Shown here: positions 22,886 through 28,225 of the stretch, one piece after another
How positions within the stretch are numbered: the first letter of the stretch is position 1
How the letters are laid out: the number at the start of each line of letters is the position of its first letter
Source of the DNA: an uncultured Gemmatimonadaceae bacterium
GTDB lineage: Bacteria; Gemmatimonadota; Gemmatimonadetes; Gemmatimonadales; GWC2-71-9
Direction: 5' to 3'
DNA length: 64,000 bases
NCBI GenBank assembly: GCA_964647615.1
Contig: CAZYIV010000008.1
Location: 910 to 64,909 of the forward strand
The notes under the pieces: model-generated
What the model saw: the letters and a program-made list of their open reading frames with translations, nothing else
Database searches by the model: none
Told to the model about the DNA's origin: nothing
Made by a program: the position numbers and the translations under genes

Positions 22886-25264
22886 TCAGGGCTTCACGAA
22901 CAGCGTGGCCCAGTCGCGGTCCGCCATCACCACCAGCTTGAGGTGCAGCTGCCCCTGGGCCGCGTCATAGAAGAACTTGTCGCCGGTGGAGGCGGTGAAC
23001 TCCGCCAGGGAGGCGGCGGGGCCCATCGGGTTGCCGGCCCAGTAGTCGCGGACGATCTGGCTGGGACTGGCGGCATAGGGAAGCGTGAGCGTCACCTGGT
23101 CGCCCGGCTGGGCGCTGTTCAGGTAGAAGCGCGGCTGGGTCGGGGTCGCGGCGGTCCAGGTCACCCCGTAGGCGCGCCCGGGCAGGACGGTGAGGGCGGC
23201 GTGGCTGGTGTTGTTGCCGGTGCCGGCCAGGTCCAGCGCCACCTGGTCGTCCCGGGTCATGGTGAGCGGGGCGATGGCCTCGCCCGCCCCGCTGTTCACC
23301 GCGAGGGTGGCGAAGCGGGTGGTGCAGACGTGCGCGTTCCATGCCGCCTGGTAGCTGCACCCCGGCGTCACGAGGATCGGGGTGTTGGCGACCACCCAGC
23401 GGCCGGCGTGGCCGGTGACCGTCCCGTTCTCGTCGAGGAACACCGCCGACTTGTCGCCGTCCTTGTCGGTGTGGGCGTCCTCGAGGTACACCGGGGTCGC
23501 ATTCACGAAGGTGAGGCGTCCGGCGTAGTTCAGCGGGTCGATGGGGAAGGCGTTGGTGCGGTTGTATCCCAGGGCGCTGGCCGGCACCGTGGTGGTGGCG
23601 GTGTAGTTGATGAAGGTCACCCCGTCGGCCCACACCTTCCCGTCGTAGAACTCGAACCCGCGCAGCACCGTCCCCGAGGGGAGCGCGCTGATCGCCCCGG
23701 TCTGGCCGATCAGGGTGCTGTTGAGGATCGAGGTCTCGTCGGCGGCGAAGGTCGCCCCGATGGCGTTGTCGGCCAGCAGGGCGTGCGACAGCACCAGGCT
23801 GCGCCCCCGGAGCCACACCGCGCGGCCATAGTGCTTGTAGGCGGTAAAGCGGGTGAAGTCCGCCGGGACCGGCGCCGAGTTGTTGTCGGCCGGGTCGGCA
23901 CGGGGGGTGTAGTTGGTCACTTCCGTCGTGCCGTCGGGCGTCGGCCCGTTGTCCACGAACAGCCCGCCGTTGTGGTTGGAATGCGCCACGTTGCCCGAGA
24001 ACTCGCGCAGCGGGGTGCTGCGCGGCAGGTCGGGCTGGCCGGTGGACAGTCCGGTCGGAGCCGCGGGGAACGCGCACCAGAACCCGAACCCGGCGGAGCC
24101 GGCCGCGACGTTGTCGCGGATGGTGTTGTCCGGGTTGGTGATCCAGAAGGTGGCGGGGGTGCCGTCGGAGGCGAGCAACCGGTCGCTGCCCTGCGGCACC
24201 CGGCTGGTGAGGCCCAGGTTGTCCTGCACCAGGTTGCCGGTCTCGCCGCCATCCTCCATGAAGTAGCCGTGCCCGGTGTGGTCGTAGCAGACGTTGTCCC
24301 GCACCACGCTGTTGTCGGTGCCGTGGATCGTCACGCAGCGGTTGAACGTCCGCCAGACGCTGTTGTTGCGGAAATACTGGCCGGTGACGTCGCCCGCCAT
24401 GTGCCAGTGCATCGGGTAGCGCGCCAGCTGGCCCCGCTGCCCCATCTGGAACAGTTCCACCCCCTCGATGTGCGCCGTGGCGCCCGCGAGGATGATGATG
24501 TGCCCGCCGTACCCCGGGGTGGTGCCGGTGTCGCCCTGGATGGTGATGTTGCGGGTGAGCAGCGCCACCTCCGCCCGCTCGTCCACGTCCACCCCGCCGG
24601 CGTGGGCCACCTCCCCGAAGTGCTCCCGCTTGAGCCCCGCCTCGAGGGTGAGGGTGCGCCCGCTCACCCCGGTGACCACCGCCTCCTCCGACCGCGACTG
24701 GTTGTAGTCGCTGGAGGCGAGCACGATCCGGTCGCCCACCCGCCAGCCCGGGTTCCGGGCCAGCGTGATGCTGGTGGCACCCTGCGGCGCGGTGCCGTCG
24801 AGGTGGGTCCAGCCCGCCCGCGACTGGCCATGCAGTTCCAGCGTACCACTCACCCCGAGGAGCTTGTTACCGATCCCCGCCACGTCCGGATTCCCGGCCG
24901 TTCCCGTCAGGGTAATGAGCGCCCGGCGGGTGTAGGGGTGGTTCTCAGTCCCCGCCTGCAGGGTGCCCTCGACCAGAATCCAGCCGGTGGTGAGGGTGAT
25001 GTCATTGTCGCCGAAGACCAGGCTGCCCTGGACCGTGAGGCTCTGCAGTGCCGGCGGGCTCAGGTCGAGCCGGACGCTGGTCCCGGCCGGGATCACGACC
25101 GAATCGCCCGGCGCGGGCACCTGCCCACCGGGCCAGGTGGCGGGATCGGACCACGGGCGGGCATTGGACGGGCCGCCGCCGCTGGCGGGGCCGGTGGTTT
25201 CGGCGGTACAGCCCAGCAGGCCGAGCGCGAAGGCGATGGCCAGGCGACCGGGGGCGTGTCGCAT
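22886..25264 (-). CDS. G8-domain / right-handed beta-helix lipoprotein, TMEM2/CEMIP-like
   Basis: Lipobox LLGC, G8 hallmarks (WSDPATWPGG.VP..GDSVVIPAG, LQAGTE..PY...ALITL), DERAEVALLTRNI, RYPMHWH, NRCVTIHGT and GHGYFMEDG.E. Confidence 0.85.
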   Translation of the reverse strand: MRHAPGRLAIAFALGLLGCTAETTGPASGGGPSNARPWSDPATWPGGQVPAPGDSVVIPAGTSVRLDLSPPALQSLTVQGSLVFGDNDITLTTGWILVEGTLQAGTENHPYTRRALITLTGTAGNPDVAGIGNKLLGVSGTLELHGQSRAGWTHLDGTAPQGATSITLARNPGWRVGDRIVLASSDYNQSRSEEAVVTGVSGRTLTLEAGLKREHFGEVAHAGGVDVDERAEVALLTRNITIQGDTGTTPGYGGHIIILAGATAHIEGVELFQMGQRGQLARYPMHWHMAGDVTGQYFRNNSVWRTFNRCVTIHGTDNSVVRDNVCYDHTGHGYFMEDGGETGNLVQDNLGLTSRVPQGSDRLLASDGTPATFWITNPDNTIRDNVAAGSAGFGFWCAFPAAPTGLSTGQPDLPRSTPLREFSGNVAHSNHNGGLFVDNGPTPDGTTEVTNYTPRADPADNNSAPVPADFTRFTAYKHYGRAVWLRGRSLVLSHALLADNAIGATFAADETSILNSTLIGQTGAISALPSGTVLRGFEFYDGKVWADGVTFINYTATTTVPASALGYNRTNAFPIDPLNYAGRLTFVNATPVYLEDAHTDKDGDKSAVFLDENGTVTGHAGRWVVANTPILVTPGCSYQAAWNAHVCTTRFATLAVNSGAGEAIAPLTMTRDDQVALDLAGTGNNTSHAALTVLPGRAYGVTWTAATPTQPRFYLNSAQPGDQVTLTLPYAASPSQIVRDYWAGNPMGPAASLAEFTASTGDKFFYDAAQGQLHLKLVVMADRDWATLFVKP

Positions 25265-25384
25265 GGAGGGGTGCCTCTGGATCGAGTGAGGAACGGGAAT
25301 GCCGGAGTCGAGCCCAATGTTCCGGACCGGAGCGCGCCACACAATTGCGAGAATCTGGACGGTGTGCGATCCCTCGACGCTTCC

Positions 25385-25393
25385 TGATACAAT
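25385..25393 (+). promoter_or_regulatory. Candidate extended -10 (TG-A-TACAAT)
   Basis: TGATACAAT upstream of the pseudokinase-AlaX pair. Confidence 0.45.
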
Positions 25394-25551
25394 GCGGTAC
25401 GGGCCCCGGGGCCGGGGTGACGCCGGTCACCGGGCGGCGCCGGAACGTCCCCCGGCCCCTGGGCGATGGCCCGCCGGTTGCCCCTTCTCCCGCAGAGCCC
25501 GGAATGCGCCGGTACCCTCCCGCGCATCCCGCGTCGCTCACGGGAGAATGC

Positions 25552-26406
25552 ATGGTGTCGCAGACGTTCCACAGCCAGCCGGTCGCGTTTGCCACGGGGA
25601 CGCTGCTCTCCGGCCGGTATCGCCTGTTGCGCGAAATCGGGCGTGGCCCGGCCGCCACGGTCTACCTGGCCCTCGATACCCGGCAGGGGATCGAGGTGGC
25701 GCTCCGGGTGGTGCGGCTGGGGGCGCAGGACCAGGCCCGCCTGCGGCGGGAGGTCTTTGCCGCCTGGGACATCGAGCACGACCACGTGGTGCGGGTGCAG
25801 GGGTGCTTCGAGGAGGGCGAGTTCAGCTGCCTGGTGCTGGACTTCATCCCCGGCCCCGACCTGGGCCGCCGGGTGGCGGAGACGGGCCCGCTCTCCCCCG
25901 ACGAGGCGGCGGCGGTGGGCCGGGGGATCGGGCTCGCGCTCCGGGCGGCGCATCGCCGCGGGATCCTGCACCGCCAGGTCACGCCGGGCAACATCCTGAT
26001 CGCCCCGGAGACCCGCGCCCTGCTGGCCGACTTCGGCGCCGCCGGCCTCGGGGCTCGGCGCGCGAGCAGCCGGGACTTCGCGGCGCCCGAGGTCCTGTCC
26101 GGCCAGCCGGCCGACGCCCGTTCCGACGTCTACAGCCTGGGGCTCTGCCTCTACTTCGCCCTGACCGGCCGGCTGCCCGCACGGCAGCTGCCCGACCGCC
26201 CGCCGCTCCCCGCCGCCGACGGCCACCGTCCGGCGCGGCTGGTGCCTGGGCTGCCCGACTGGCTGGACGAGGCCGTAGCCGCCGCGACGGCGGCCCTCCC
26301 CGCCGACCGCTACCCCTCCGCGGGGCGCTTCGCCGAGGTGCTGACGCCGGTCCGTGGCTCCGGACCTTTCAGGATCGACCCGGCGCCGGTTATCGTCCGG
26401 TCGTGA
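25552..26406 (+). CDS. Ser/Thr kinase-fold protein with degenerate catalytic motifs (pseudokinase)
   Basis: Kinase fold motifs (GRY, DFG, APE, DVYSLG) are present, but VAIK is VALR and HRDxKPxN is HRQVTPGN, checked in the DNA. GGGAG RBS before the ATG at 25552. Confidence 0.8.
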   Translation: MVSQTFHSQPVAFATGTLLSGRYRLLREIGRGPAATVYLALDTRQGIEVALRVVRLGAQDQARLRREVFAAWDIEHDHVVRVQGCFEEGEFSCLVLDFIPGPDLGRRVAETGPLSPDEAAAVGRGIGLALRAAHRRGILHRQVTPGNILIAPETRALLADFGAAGLGARRASSRDFAAPEVLSGQPADARSDVYSLGLCLYFALTGRLPARQLPDRPPLPAADGHRPARLVPGLPDWLDEAVAAATAALPADRYPSAGRFAEVLTPVRGSGPFRIDPAPVIVRS

Positions 26407-27569
26407 CGACCGAACGCCTCTACTACTCCGACAGCTACCGCCTGAAGTTCAGCAGCCCCGTCGTCCGCACCGCGGACGAGGGGCGCGCCGTGGTGCTGGC
26501 CCGGACCGCCTTCTACCCCACCTCGGGCGGCCAGCCGCACGACACCGGGACGCTCGGCGGGATCCCCGTGCTGGACGTGACCGACGAGGGCGACGAGGTG
26601 GTGCACCACCTCGCCGCCCCGCTCCGCGGCACCGAGGCCGAGGGCGAGGTGGACTGGGGCCGCCGCTTCGACCACATGCAGCAGCACACCGCGCAGCACC
26701 TGCTGTCGGCGGTGCTCGAGGATCTCTTCGGCTTTCACACCGTGAGCGTGCACTTCGGGGCCGCCAGCTCCACCCTCGACCTGGACACCGGGGAGGTCAC
26801 GCCGGAACAGGTGCGGGAGGCGGAGGCGCGCGCCAACCGGACCGTCACCGAGAACCGTCCGGTGACCGTGGGCTTCGAGGACGCGGCCACGGCGGAGGGG
26901 CTCCGCAAGGCCAGCGCCCGCGCGGGCGAGCTCCGCATCGTGACCATCGCGGCGCTCGACCGCAGCGCCTGCGGCGGGACCCACGTCCGCGCCACCGGTG
27001 AGATCGGGTCCCTCCTGCTCCGCGGGGTGGAGCGGGTGAAGAAGCAGGTGCGGATCGAGTTCCTGGCCGGCGGGCGGGCGGTGGGGCGGGCGCGGGCGGA
27101 CTATGACCTCCTCGCCGGGCTGGCGGCGCAGTACACCGCGGGGCTCGAGGAGCTGCCGCGGGTCCTGGAGAAGCAGCGGGCGGAGCTGGGCAGCGCGCTG
27201 GCCGACCGGCGGGCGGTGGAGGAGGAGGTGCACGCGTATCGCGCCCGGGAGCTCTACGGCGCGGCGGTGCCCGATGCCCGCGGCCGGCGGCTCATCGTGC
27301 TCTCGGGCCCCAGCCGCTCCTCCGAGCGGCTGCGCGGGCTGGCCCAGGCGCTGATCGCGATGCCCGGCGCGGTGGTGATCGGGACGCTCTCCGACCCGCC
27401 GACGGTGCTCTTCGCCGCCGCCCCCGACACCGGGGTGGATGCCGGCGCCCGGCTCAAGCCGCTGCTCGCCGGGGTGGGGGGACGCGGCGGGGGCAGTGCC
27501 CGGCTTGCCCAGGGCACTGCCCCCTCGGCCGACCTGCTGGCGCAGGTCGTCGCGGCGCTGTCCGCCTAG
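26403..27569 (+). CDS. alaX: Alanyl-tRNA editing protein (AlaX-like) with DHHA1 domain
   Basis: TAFYPTSGGQPHDTG, HMQQHTAQH, CGGTH and GGRGGG...AQG. The GTG overlaps the pseudokinase stop. Confidence 0.9.
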   Translation: MTTERLYYSDSYRLKFSSPVVRTADEGRAVVLARTAFYPTSGGQPHDTGTLGGIPVLDVTDEGDEVVHHLAAPLRGTEAEGEVDWGRRFDHMQQHTAQHLLSAVLEDLFGFHTVSVHFGAASSTLDLDTGEVTPEQVREAEARANRTVTENRPVTVGFEDAATAEGLRKASARAGELRIVTIAALDRSACGGTHVRATGEIGSLLLRGVERVKKQVRIEFLAGGRAVGRARADYDLLAGLAAQYTAGLEELPRVLEKQRAELGSALADRRAVEEEVHAYRARELYGAAVPDARGRRLIVLSGPSRSSERLRGLAQALIAMPGAVVIGTLSDPPTVLFAAAPDTGVDAGARLKPLLAGVGGRGGGSARLAQGTAPSADLLAQVVAALSA

Positions 27570-28225
27570 TTCCGGACCGCCTCCACCGAGACCTCCAGCT
27601 CCACGTCGTCACCCAGCAGGTTGCCGTTGTCCAGCGCCTGGTTCCAGGTGATGCCGAAGTCCCGCCGGTTGATGATCGCGGTGCCGTCGAAGGCGATCCG
27701 CTCCTTCCCGTTCATGTCCGCGCCGATCCCCAGGTACTCCCCCTTGAACACCACCGGGTGGGTGTTGCCCTTGATGGTGAGCAGCCCGCTCATCTCGAAG
27801 CGATTGTTCTCGGCCACGATCCCGGTGCTCTCGAAGGTGATCTCCGGGAAGCTGTCCGCCGAGAAGAACCGGGGGGAGCGCAGGTCGGCGTCGCGCCCGG
27901 AGTTGTTGGTGGTGATGCTGCCGCTCTTGATCTGGATGTTGACGGTCCCCCGGGCCCAGTCCTCGCCCCGGGTCACGATGGTCCCCCGCCACTCGGTGAA
28001 CTGGCCCCGCACCCGGCCCAGCAGGTGGCGGATCCGGAACCCGACCTCGGAGTGGGTGGGATCCACCCGCCAGGCGGTGCCCACCGGCTCGCGGGTGAAG
28101 GTGCGCCCCTGGGTCTTCCCAGCGGCGTTGGCCCGCATCTGGTCCGGCGACTGGGCCAGGACCGCAGCGGGGAGGGCAACGGCCAGGGCGGCCACCAGCA
28201 GGAAGCGGGAACGGGCGCGCATCAT
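27566..28225 (-). CDS. yceI: YceI family periplasmic lipid/quinone-binding protein
   Basis: Signal peptide, WRVDPTHSEVGF, RDADLRS..FF....FPEITF, G.LTIKG.T and INRRDFGI. Confidence 0.92.
   Translation of the reverse strand: MMRARSRFLLVAALAVALPAAVLAQSPDQMRANAAGKTQGRTFTREPVGTAWRVDPTHSEVGFRIRHLLGRVRGQFTEWRGTIVTRGEDWARGTVNIQIKSGSITTNNSGRDADLRSPRFFSADSFPEITFESTGIVAENNRFEMSGLLTIKGNTHPVVFKGEYLGIGADMNGKERIAFDGTAIINRRDFGITWNQALDNGNLLGDDVELEVSVEAVRN

What the first reader, a model, noticed from the sequence alone, without database searches (positions are those of the whole stretch)
25552..27569. Pseudokinase translationally coupled to an AlaX tRNA-editing protein
Seen: the beta-3 Lys is Arg (VALR), the catalytic Asp is Gln and the loop Lys is Thr (HRQVTPGN), the Gly-loop is altered and the activation loop is short, while DFG and APE are kept. 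There is no TM or sensor domain. The ORF is intact and its stop overlaps the alaX GTG. Inference: a catalytically dead scaffold or nucleotide sensor possibly linked to translation quality control, or an early-decay pseudogene.
Basis: partly seen in the sequence, partly recalled or inferred. Interest (0 to 1): 0.55.

Follow-up and report, generated by a model that had tools for sequence, protein, structure and literature searches.

The report
Selected pseudokinase gene upstream of alaX
A small soluble protein with a kinase fold but no catalytic residue is kept intact by selection next to the tRNA-proofreading gene alaX in one group of Gemmatimonadales; it is the cut-down descendant of a membrane signalling kinase, and whether it works with AlaX is still unproven.

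Summary
Window 25552-26406 (+) encodes a 284-aa protein that is only a Hanks-type kinase domain. It has beta3 Lys->Arg, HRD->HRQ, catalytic-loop Lys->Thr and an activation loop of 15 residues against 23; DFG and APE are kept. Its TGA overlaps the GTG of an intact AlaX-L gene (26403-27569) as GTGA.

It is not a decaying pseudogene. Every truncated ortholog examined lacks the HRD Asp: 0 of 47 metagenome proteins, 0 of 25 full short forms in genomes. All frames are open, and dN/dS is 0.05-0.23, as low as alaX and active kinases.

Trees place all truncated forms in one clade (100/95). Its sister is a group of canonical, roughly 600-620-aa kinases with a zinc ribbon, TM hairpin and coiled coil. Those kinases also sit upstream of alaX and are preceded by a small TPR membrane protein.

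The same locus occurs in four states: a three-gene operon, pseudokinase plus alaX, a C-lobe-only ORF plus alaX, and alaX alone.

The alaX pairing is conserved only in this genus-level clade plus one neighbouring genus, not across the phylum. AlaX often occurs without the kinase.

A working partnership with AlaX is plausible (about 0.35-0.45) but untested. The scan had already noted the long kinase-alaX operon in another genome.

The parts
25542..25547 (+). Shine-Dalgarno-like GGGAGA, 4 nt before the pseudokinase ATG
   Evidence: Read directly from the sequence. The start is supported by the conserved MVSQ/MVSH N-terminus in 8 orthologs.
25552..26406 (+). Pseudokinase CDS of 284 aa: kinase domain only, soluble
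   Evidence: Translation. Pkinase 1.1e-32. AF2 pLDDT 89 and pTM 0.86. Best PDB matches are PknB, PknA, PknI and Stk1. dN/dS 0.05-0.23.
25639..25656 (+). Gly-rich loop GRGPAA (canonical relatives have GRGGYS)
   Evidence: The first two Gly are kept; the fourth position is Pro.
25705..25707 (+). Codon for Arg52 at the beta3 Lys position (VALR)
   Evidence: R in 8 of 47 short homologs (the window's subclade), K in 39 of 47.
25969..25992 (+). Catalytic loop HRQVTPGN: catalytic Asp -> Gln, loop Lys -> Thr, Asn kept
   Evidence: Asp occurs at this position in 0 of 47 short homologs (H 28, Q 8, G 6, N 5).
26029..26091 (+). DFG, a shortened activation loop of 15 residues with none of the Thr-rich stretch seen in the long forms, then APE
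   Evidence: DFG Asp in 47 of 47; loop length 9-19 in short forms against 23 in long forms.
26403..26406 (+). GTGA overlap: the alaX start GTG and the pseudokinase stop TGA
   Evidence: The same -4 overlap is present in L001-L007.
26403..27569 (+). alaX: AlaX-L type trans-editing protein of 388 aa, with an editing domain and a C-terminal DHHA1-like domain
   Evidence: tRNA_SAD 34.2 bits against a cut-off of 24; AlaXM model 1.8e-50; archaeal AlaRS model 7.5e-57 over its editing and C-terminal parts. PDB 3kew 1.1e-41.
26685..26699 (+). AlaX zinc motif HxxxH (H95...H99)
   Evidence: Alignment to 3kew.
26970..26984 (+). AlaX zinc motif CxxxH (C190...H194)
   Evidence: Alignment to 3kew.
22886..25342 (-). 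Divergent upstream neighbour: G8 + CEMIP beta-helix protein (bounds the unit)
   Evidence: Pfam G8 1.3e-33 and CEMIP_beta-hel 9.7e-70.
27566..28225 (-). Convergent downstream neighbour: YceI-like protein, whose 3' end overlaps the alaX stop (bounds the unit)
   Evidence: Pfam YceI 1.4e-43; coordinates.

Best explanation
Shown. The gene encodes a soluble, non-catalytic kinase-fold protein (a pseudokinase) that is kept by purifying selection. It descends from a membrane-anchored Hanks Ser/Thr kinase made of a kinase domain, zinc ribbon, TM hairpin and coiled coil. That kinase formed an operon with a small TPR membrane protein upstream and alaX downstream. One truncation removed the TPR gene and the kinase's C-terminal half. 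Different sublineages then lost catalysis in different ways: HRD -> HRH/HRQ/HRG/HRA; HGN; or deletion of the whole N-lobe with DFG -> AFG.

Inferred. Most of the family keeps the nucleotide-binding residues (beta3 Lys, alphaC Glu, loop Asn, DFG Asp). N-lobe-less versions also persist under selection. The common function therefore most likely lies in a C-lobe protein-binding surface, with nucleotide binding as an optional modulator. The most likely partner is AlaX, which is made from the same transcript. In the window's subclade the 4-nt overlap suggests that alaX translation restarts where the pseudokinase frame ends. The pseudokinase would then act as a non-essential accessory subunit that tunes or localises AlaX deacylation of mischarged tRNA-Ala. 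It would be a remnant of an ancestral kinase-to-AlaX regulatory link.

Confidence by step: about 0.9 for the shown part, about 0.35-0.45 for the AlaX partnership.
For: Pseudokinase state and selection:
- Pkinase fold.
- HRD Asp absent in 0 of 47 metagenome homologs and in all 25 full short forms from genomes; the 4 C-lobe-only forms keep HRD but have AFG.
- dN/dS 0.05-0.23, against 0.11-0.36 for alaX in the same genome pairs and 0.12-0.23 for canonical long kinases.
- Both lobes are constrained.

Origin:
- Short and C-lobe-only forms make one clade (UFBoot 100, SH-aLRT 95), sister to the alaX-linked long kinases (89/93).
- Architecture of the long form.
- The TPR gene is upstream of every long form and of no short form.
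- No TPR homolog and no long paralog were found in this genome.

C-lobe as the core:
- 189-210-aa C-lobe-only ORFs sit directly upstream of alaX in 4 species, with dN/dS 0.10-0.15.
- Their AF2 model has pLDDT 83.5.

Link to alaX:
- alaX is directly downstream at every stage wherever the contig allows.
- The -4 overlap is present in 7 species.
- The flanking G8 and YceI genes are replaced in several lineages while the pair persists.
- No short form was found without alaX, except one cut by a contig end.
- A different kinase paralog lies 7 nt upstream of alaX in genus g26.
Against: - alaX exists without any such kinase in most genera that have it (about 64 loci) and in three species of the same genus. 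One of these has a clean deletion that leaves the G8 gene and alaX 160 nt apart.
- In two species an opposite-strand gene sits between the pseudokinase and alaX.
- No kinase-AlaX fusion protein was found.
- The count of flank rearrangements against junction rearrangements is too small to be significant. Retention of gene order within one clade can be plain inheritance, or dependence of alaX on the upstream promoter.
- No interaction, nucleotide-binding or activity data exist.
Confidence: 0.45

Rival explanations
1. The pseudokinase is functional, but its job has nothing to do with AlaX. It could be, for example, a soluble decoy, scaffold or allosteric partner for some of the roughly 50 other Hanks kinases, PP2C phosphatases or their substrates in this genome. 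The adjacency to alaX would then be inherited gene order, frozen because alaX uses the upstream promoter.
For: - Linkage is confined to one genus-level clade plus g39.
- alaX does without the kinase in most genera and in 3 species of g1.
- An inserted opposite-strand gene separates the pair in L014 and L016.
- The genome holds 52 kinase-domain matches.
- Known pseudokinases commonly regulate active kinases (PMC12599244; general knowledge).
Against: - The closest active paralogs (types A and B) and the TPR partner were not found in this genome, so the obvious kinase partner is missing.
- The pair stays together through several flank rearrangements, and even after reduction to a C-lobe.
- No short form was seen away from alaX.
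Confidence: 0.35
2. The protein keeps a weak or unusual enzymatic activity, such as slow autophosphorylation, ATPase activity or another nucleotide-dependent reaction. Most of the family keeps the ATP- and metal-binding residues.
For: Across 47 short homologs: beta3 Lys 39, DFG Asp 47, catalytic-loop Asn 42, alphaC Glu/Asp 42. The N-lobe is under purifying selection where present. Some eukaryotic proteins with a substituted HRD Asp keep trace activity (for example HER3; recalled knowledge, not tested here).
Against: - The catalytic-base position holds H, Q, G, A or N with no single replacement. Gly and Ala cannot act as a base.
- The window's copy also has Lys->Arg and loop Lys->Thr.
- The Thr-rich stretch of the activation loop seen in the long forms is deleted.
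- A sublineage has no N-lobe at all and so cannot bind ATP, yet it is retained.
Confidence: 0.12
3. It is a pseudogene in early decay. Alternatively, the ORF is kept only as a translated leader so that ribosomes reach the alaX start.
For: The locus shows stepwise reduction across species, ending in complete loss. alaX has no obvious Shine-Dalgarno sequence, and its start overlaps the upstream stop.
Against: - dN/dS is 0.05-0.23 at the amino-acid level.
- No frameshift or internal stop occurs in about 29 genomic and 47 metagenomic copies.
- The AF2 fold is confident.
- The C-lobe sequence is strongly conserved.
- A leader-only role would not constrain the protein sequence.
Confidence: 0.03

Closest known systems
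PknB/StkP/PknA-type bacterial Hanks Ser/Thr kinases (PDB 9ruk, 1mru, 1o6y, 4ow8)
   Same: Same fold and about 30-35% identity over the whole kinase domain. DFG, APE, alphaC Glu and catalytic-loop Asn are kept.
   Different: - No catalytic Asp.
- Lys->Arg in this copy.
- The activation loop is 8 residues shorter and lacks the Thr-rich stretch of the long forms.
- No TM segment and no PASTA or other sensor domain.
- It scores 160 bits against the 450-bit cut-off of the Stk1 PASTA-kinase model.
Its own long relatives in Gemmatimonadales: the TPR membrane protein + kinase/zinc-ribbon/TM-hairpin/coiled-coil module, type A (with alaX downstream) and type B (without)
   Same: 45-53% identity in the kinase domain. 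Shared C-lobe signature (DGHRPS ... WLD ... ATAALPADRF). Same position upstream of alaX for type A.
   Different: The long forms are canonical (GRGGxS, VAxK, HRDVKPxN, 23-residue activation loop), membrane-anchored and preceded by the TPR gene. The window's protein has lost all of these.
Described bacterial pseudokinase families ActPs1-3 (including the M. tuberculosis MviN pseudokinase domain), GLW, CP1, DYD and DLHK (PMC12599244; bioRxiv 10.1101/2025.01.12.632604)
   Same: Hanks-type fold with catalytic motifs lost but conserved as a family. A scaffolding role is proposed for them, as here.
   Different: - Those papers report loss of the VAIK Lys, at least in part, in all seven families, and loss of the DFG Asp in several. 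This family keeps Lys in 39 of 47 and the DFG Asp in 47 of 47, and loses only the HRD Asp.
- Neither paper mentions Gemmatimonadota or tRNA.
- Membership could not be tested because their models are not available here.
Eukaryotic nucleotide-binding pseudokinases such as HER3/ErbB3 and STRAD-alpha (recalled knowledge, not tested here)
   Same: Catalytic Asp substituted while ATP-binding residues are kept. They act by protein-protein contacts, not by phosphotransfer.
   Different: No evolutionary relationship beyond the superfamily. No partner is demonstrated here.
AlaX trans-editing proteins (AlaX-S/M/L; PDB 3kew, 2e1b, 1v4p; AlaRS editing domain)
   Same: The downstream gene has the tRNA_SAD editing domain with HxxxH and CxxxH, plus a DHHA1-like C-terminal domain.
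   Different: No kinase association is mentioned in the AlaX neighbourhood survey PMC13149037 ('kinase' occurs 0 times). No paper in the library holds both 'pseudokinase' and 'AlaX'.

Membership tests
Protein kinase superfamily (Pfam PF00069 Pkinase) | Sequence match above the gathering score and a bilobal kinase fold | tested here: met
   114 bits against 31.7. AF2 pLDDT 89; Foldseek matches to PknB/PknA at E about 1e-21.
Catalytically competent Hanks-type Ser/Thr kinase | Catalytic Asp of the HRD motif | tested here: not met
   HRQ in the window. 0 of 47 short homologs have Asp.
Catalytically competent Hanks-type Ser/Thr kinase | Beta3 (VAIK) Lys | tested here: not met
   VALR in the window. 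Kept as Lys in 39 of 47 family members.
Catalytically competent Hanks-type Ser/Thr kinase | DFG Asp, catalytic-loop Asn and alphaC Glu | tested here: met
   D160, N147 and E67 are present.
Catalytically competent Hanks-type Ser/Thr kinase | Full-length activation loop with the Thr-rich stretch of canonical relatives | tested here: not met
   15 residues against 23. The TGxLxGT stretch of the long forms is deleted.
Pseudokinase (sequence definition: kinase fold lacking at least one of VAIK Lys, HRD Asp or DFG Asp) | At least one of the three residues is missing and the loss is conserved in orthologs | tested here: met
   HRD Asp lost in all full short orthologs; Lys also lost in this copy.
Pseudokinase (biochemical definition) | No phosphotransfer activity | not testable with these tools
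   Needs an in vitro kinase assay.
Stk1/PknB PASTA kinases (NF033483) | Score above the equivalog cut-off; TM segment and PASTA repeats | tested here: not met
   160.5 bits against 450. No TM or PASTA domain.
Named bacterial pseudokinase families (ActPs1-3, GLW, CP1, DYD, DLHK) | Family-specific constraint patterns | tested here: inconclusive
   The motif pattern (Lys and DFG Asp kept, only HRD Asp lost) differs from the published descriptions. The family models are not available here.
AlaX trans-editing protein (downstream gene) | tRNA_SAD editing domain with HxxxH and CxxxH zinc ligands | tested here: met
   PF07973 34.2 bits against 24. H95/H99 and C190/H194 align to 3kew.
AlaX-M equivalog (NF040865) | Score above the cut-off | tested here: not met
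   171.9 bits against 300. The protein is the longer AlaX-L type with a DHHA1-like C-terminal domain (25 bits against 25.9).
Translationally coupled operon | Overlapping stop and start codons on one strand, with no terminator between | tested here: met
   GTGA at 26403-26406. No terminator-like site. Actual coupling and co-transcription are not testable here.
Conserved functional gene pair (pseudokinase-alaX) | Adjacency conserved beyond what shared descent explains, or occurrence as a fusion | tested here: inconclusive
   Conserved in g1 and g39 through flank changes. Not seen in other genera. No fusion found. One independent adjacency with another kinase paralog.

The most novel reading that the evidence does not exclude
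The pseudokinase, and in related species its bare C-lobe, is a regulatory or targeting subunit of the AlaX trans-editing enzyme. It would be inherited from an ancestral circuit in which an envelope-sensing TPR/Ser-Thr kinase module controlled tRNA-Ala proofreading. That would be a direct, previously undescribed link between Hanks-type signalling and aminoacyl-tRNA quality control.
Probability: 0.3. Interest if true: 0.7.

Novelty: new member of a known kind. Interest (0 to 1): 0.45.

Why it matters
Bacterial pseudokinases are recognised but almost none has a known partner or role. This family offers an unusually clean natural series at one locus: an active membrane kinase with its TPR partner, then a soluble pseudokinase, then a C-lobe alone, then nothing. 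The same downstream gene, alaX, is present throughout. That gives a concrete, cheap hypothesis to test (binding to and modulation of AlaX). It also shows which part of a kinase fold selection keeps once catalysis is gone. If the AlaX link is real, it would connect Ser/Thr signalling to tRNA proofreading. If not, this is still a well-documented example of how a pseudokinase arises.

Tried and rejected
- Pseudogene or neutral evolution: rejected by dN/dS and intact frames.
- Phylum-wide kinase-alaX linkage: rejected. alaX was found in 64 of 201 genomes sampled. About 64 alaX loci outside g1 and g39 lack the clade's kinase. Two other kinase hits near alaX (L115, L116) lie on the other strand, downstream, and fit chance given about 50 kinases per genome.
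- Natural kinase-AlaX fusions: none among the 120 best longer homologs.
- Partner kinase in the same genome: the type A and type B long paralogs and the TPR protein were not found in G000, which is 96% complete.
- The G097 kinase next to alaX is not the same lineage. It falls outside the clade, and its 29 closest homologs elsewhere have no alaX nearby.
- The promoter and terminator consensus scan found nothing in 25200-27800. This is uninformative at 73% GC in a phylum with other promoter types.
- Residues conserved in short forms but different from those conserved in long forms: none at the 0.8 threshold.
- The AlaX tree used as a species proxy is poorly resolved at depth. It shows only that the kinase-less L149 is nested among kinase-linked AlaX.
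I did not try to force an artificial frameshift fusion through the single-chain tool.
- Unpublished genomes contribute only L048 (G106), one of the kinase-less alaX loci, and L142 (G222), one of the 29 P0243 homologs. G249 and G321 appear only in the tally. No conclusion depends on them.
Full report
**1. What is in the window**

The ORF at 25552-26406 (+) translates to 284 aa. A GGGAGA motif lies 4 nt before its ATG. The N-terminus MVSQ/MVSH recurs in eight orthologs.

The ORF's TGA (26404-26406) overlaps the GTG (26403) of a 388-aa ORF that ends at 27569. The pair is bounded by two genes on the other strand:
- upstream, a divergent G8 + CEMIP beta-helix gene (22886-25342, -)
- downstream, a convergent YceI gene (27566-28225, -).

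It is therefore a self-contained two-gene unit. A consensus scan found no terminator between the two genes, and no sigma-70-type promoter anywhere in the region. That is weak evidence in a 73% GC genome.

**2. The first gene is a kinase domain without a catalytic centre**

Pfam Pkinase scores 114 bits against a cut-off of 31.7. The best solved relatives are StkP, PknE, PknA and PknB.

The StkP alignment shows VAVK -> VALR and HRDLKPQN -> HRQVTPGN. DFG and APE are kept, and about 8 residues are missing from the activation loop.

It is GRGPAA against GRGGxS/A, and the first two Gly are kept.

An AF2 model built on a 53-sequence alignment is confident (pLDDT 89, pTM 0.86). It gives a compact kinase fold with disordered ends. 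Its closest structures are PknB, PknA, PknI and Stk1. There is no TM segment and no further domain.

**3. The second gene is a normal-looking AlaX**

- tRNA_SAD lies above its cut-off.
- The AlaXM model matches at 1.8e-50, and the archaeal AlaRS model at 7.5e-57 over its editing and C-terminal parts.
- There is a borderline DHHA1 C-terminal domain.
- Both zinc motifs, HxxxH and CxxxH, align to PDB 3kew.

It is the long (AlaX-L) type.

**4. Conservation of the dead state**

A search of the large protein collection gave a sharply bounded family of 244-332-aa proteins at 47-88% identity. Beyond it, identity drops to generic kinases at about 40%.

Motif states in the 47 family members aligned:

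| Position | State |
|---|---|
| HRD Asp | never Asp (H 28, Q 8, G 6, N 5) |
| Beta3 Lys | K 39, R 8 (the window's subclade) |
| DFG Asp | present in 47 |
| Catalytic-loop Asn | present in 42 |
| AlphaC acidic residue | present in 42 |
| Activation loop | 9-19 residues, against 23 in canonical relatives |

The same picture holds in the genomes of the genus. The loss of catalysis is therefore old and shared. K->R and the particular Gln are local details.

**5. Selection**

Nei-Gojobori dN/dS for close species pairs:

| Gene set | dN/dS |
|---|---|
| Pseudokinase | 0.05-0.23 |
| alaX, same genome pairs | 0.11-0.36 |
| Canonical long kinases | 0.12-0.23 |

Both lobes of the pseudokinase are constrained. 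No copy carries a frameshift or an internal stop. The pseudogene reading, and a leader-ORF-only reading, are rejected.

**6. Origin**

In 61 genomes of the order, the best relatives fall into four classes.

(a) Short forms of about 246-299 aa lie directly upstream of alaX.

(b) C-lobe-only ORFs of 189-210 aa are found in four species, also directly upstream of alaX.
- They start at the alphaD helix.
- They keep HRD but have AFG.
- The intergenic space leaves no room for an N-lobe.
- Their dN/dS is 0.10-0.15, and their AF2 model has pLDDT 83.5.

(c) Long type A kinases have ORFs of about 600-620 aa.
- All motifs are canonical.
- After the kinase domain come a CxxC...CxxC ribbon, a TM hairpin and a coiled-coil tail.
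- They too lie upstream of alaX, at roughly 40-330 nt in g1.
- In genus g39 (L074) the long kinase abuts alaX.

(d) Long type B paralogs have no alaX within about 3.5 kb.

A careful ML tree puts all short and C-lobe-only forms in one clade (UFBoot 100, SH-aLRT 95). That clade is sister to type A (89/93), and type B lies outside both.

Every long-form locus, type A or B, has a gene for a 195-aa TPR membrane protein immediately upstream of the kinase. No short-form locus has one, and neither does the window.

This genome has neither the TPR protein nor a long paralog with these queries (the genome is 96% complete). No genome shows both a type A long form and a short form, so the two are positional orthologs.

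The simplest history is one truncation of a TPR-kinase-alaX operon. That event removed the membrane and sensor parts. Independent erosion of catalytic elements in the sublineages followed.

The end point also exists. In one species of the genus (L149) the G8 gene and alaX are 160 nt apart with no kinase, and its AlaX nests among kinase-linked AlaX. Genus g20 has the same arrangement.

Earlier notes of this scan describe the long module in other genomes. One of them (e1-2340066) describes it with alaX downstream. I confirmed both features independently here.

**7. How far the alaX linkage goes**

alaX was found in 64 of 201 genomes sampled across the phylum.

Within g1 and g39 the kinase or pseudokinase is directly upstream wherever the contig allows:
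- the -4 overlap is present in 7 species
- most others have gaps of 3-74 nt
- in L014 and L016 an opposite-strand gene, weakly M48-like, has been inserted between the pair.

The pair persists while the upstream G8 and downstream YceI neighbours are replaced in several lineages. The number of events is too small for a meaningful test.

Outside g1 and g39, about 64 alaX loci lack the clade's kinase. Three g1 species have alaX without it.

One genus (g26, G097) has a different, canonical, multi-TM kinase paralog ending 7 nt before alaX. That kinase lies outside the clade, and none of its 29 nearest homologs elsewhere is near alaX. With about 50 kinases per genome, a single such case could be chance.

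No kinase-AlaX fusion was found. No short pseudokinase was seen without alaX.

The dependence, if there is one, runs one way. AlaX does not need the pseudokinase.

**8. Mechanism**

Shown: a non-catalytic kinase fold, selected, soluble, derived by truncation, and adjacent to alaX on the same strand.

Inferred:
- Nucleotide-binding residues are mostly kept, and the N-lobe is constrained where present. Nucleotide binding is therefore likely in most members, and less so in this copy with Lys->Arg.
- A lineage without any N-lobe is still retained. The shared function therefore most likely lies in the C-lobe (alphaD-alphaI), which is the best-conserved part. That points to a protein-binding role.
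- AlaX is the best candidate partner on gene-order grounds alone. I put this at about 0.35-0.45.
- The main rival is a role unrelated to AlaX, with the adjacency merely inherited (about 0.35). Residual or atypical enzymatic activity is about 0.12, and pseudogene about 0.03.

**9. Comparison with what is known**

Bacterial Hanks-type pseudokinases are a recognised kind. Seven families have been defined: ActPs1-3, GLW, CP1, DYD and DLHK (PMC12599244; bioRxiv 10.1101/2025.01.12.632604).

Their published motif patterns differ from this family, which keeps the Lys and the DFG Asp and loses only the HRD Asp. Neither paper mentions Gemmatimonadota or tRNA genes. Membership could not be tested without their models.

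A genome-neighbourhood survey of AlaX (PMC13149037) does not mention kinases. No paper in the library holds both 'pseudokinase' and 'AlaX'.

I file this as a new member, a lineage-specific family, of a known kind. It has an undescribed but unproven association with alaX.

**10. Caveats**

- Gene order within one clade is weak functional evidence.
- NG86 in a 73% GC genome is approximate, although the bias would not create values near 0.1.
- Genome samples are draws, not complete sets.
- Several assemblies are incomplete.
- Unpublished genomes (G106/L048 and G222/L142; G249 and G321 only in the tally) add only to counts that do not depend on them.

Noticed in passing
L102:4670-6598 (-) and L102:3493-4662 (-) (G097, genus g26): A canonical multi-TM Hanks kinase of 642 aa, from a different paralog group, ends 7 nt before the GTG of a divergent alaX (42% identical to the window's AlaX). 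This is an independent kinase-alaX adjacency. Its 29 closest homologs in other genomes have no alaX nearby.
   Followed up: partly
L072:3680-4249 (+); L068:981-1613 (-); L069:3407-4030 (-); L073: In four species of the genus the gene upstream of alaX is only the kinase C-lobe (189-210 aa; HRDVQPAN, with AFG in place of DFG). dN/dS is 0.10-0.15 and the AF2 fold is confident. A half-kinase kept by selection is unusual.
   Followed up: partly
L023:920-1507 (+), and the equivalent position in L018, L019, L021, L022, L074, L024-L029 and L061-L066: A gene for a 195-aa single-pass TPR protein sits directly upstream of, and touching, every long zinc-ribbon/TM kinase of this clade, in both the alaX-linked and unlinked paralogs. 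This looks like a conserved two-gene sensor-kinase module.
   Followed up: partly
L014:2264-2899 (-), and the same position in L016: A small opposite-strand gene with a HExxH motif (weak Peptidase_M48 match, E 0.0036) is inserted between the pseudokinase and alaX in two species. This breaks the operon there.
   Followed up: no
L149:1-1500 (G012), and L054 and L057 (genus g20): The G8/CEMIP-like gene and alaX are direct divergent neighbours with no kinase gene between them (160-280 nt apart). The kinase gene was either deleted or never present.
   Followed up: partly
window 22886-25342 (-): An 818-aa protein with a G8 domain and a CEMIP-type beta-helix (Pfam 1.3e-33 and 9.7e-70). It is a conserved upstream neighbour of the locus in many species of the genus.
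   Followed up: no
whole genome G000: A type B kinase query gave 52 kinase-domain matches in a 4.1-Mb genome. Most lie in open frames of 600-1100 aa, so this is a very kinase-rich bacterium.
   Followed up: no
window 27566-27569: The 3' ends of alaX (+) and the YceI gene (-) overlap by 4 nt. No terminator-like hairpin was found by the simple scan.
   Followed up: no
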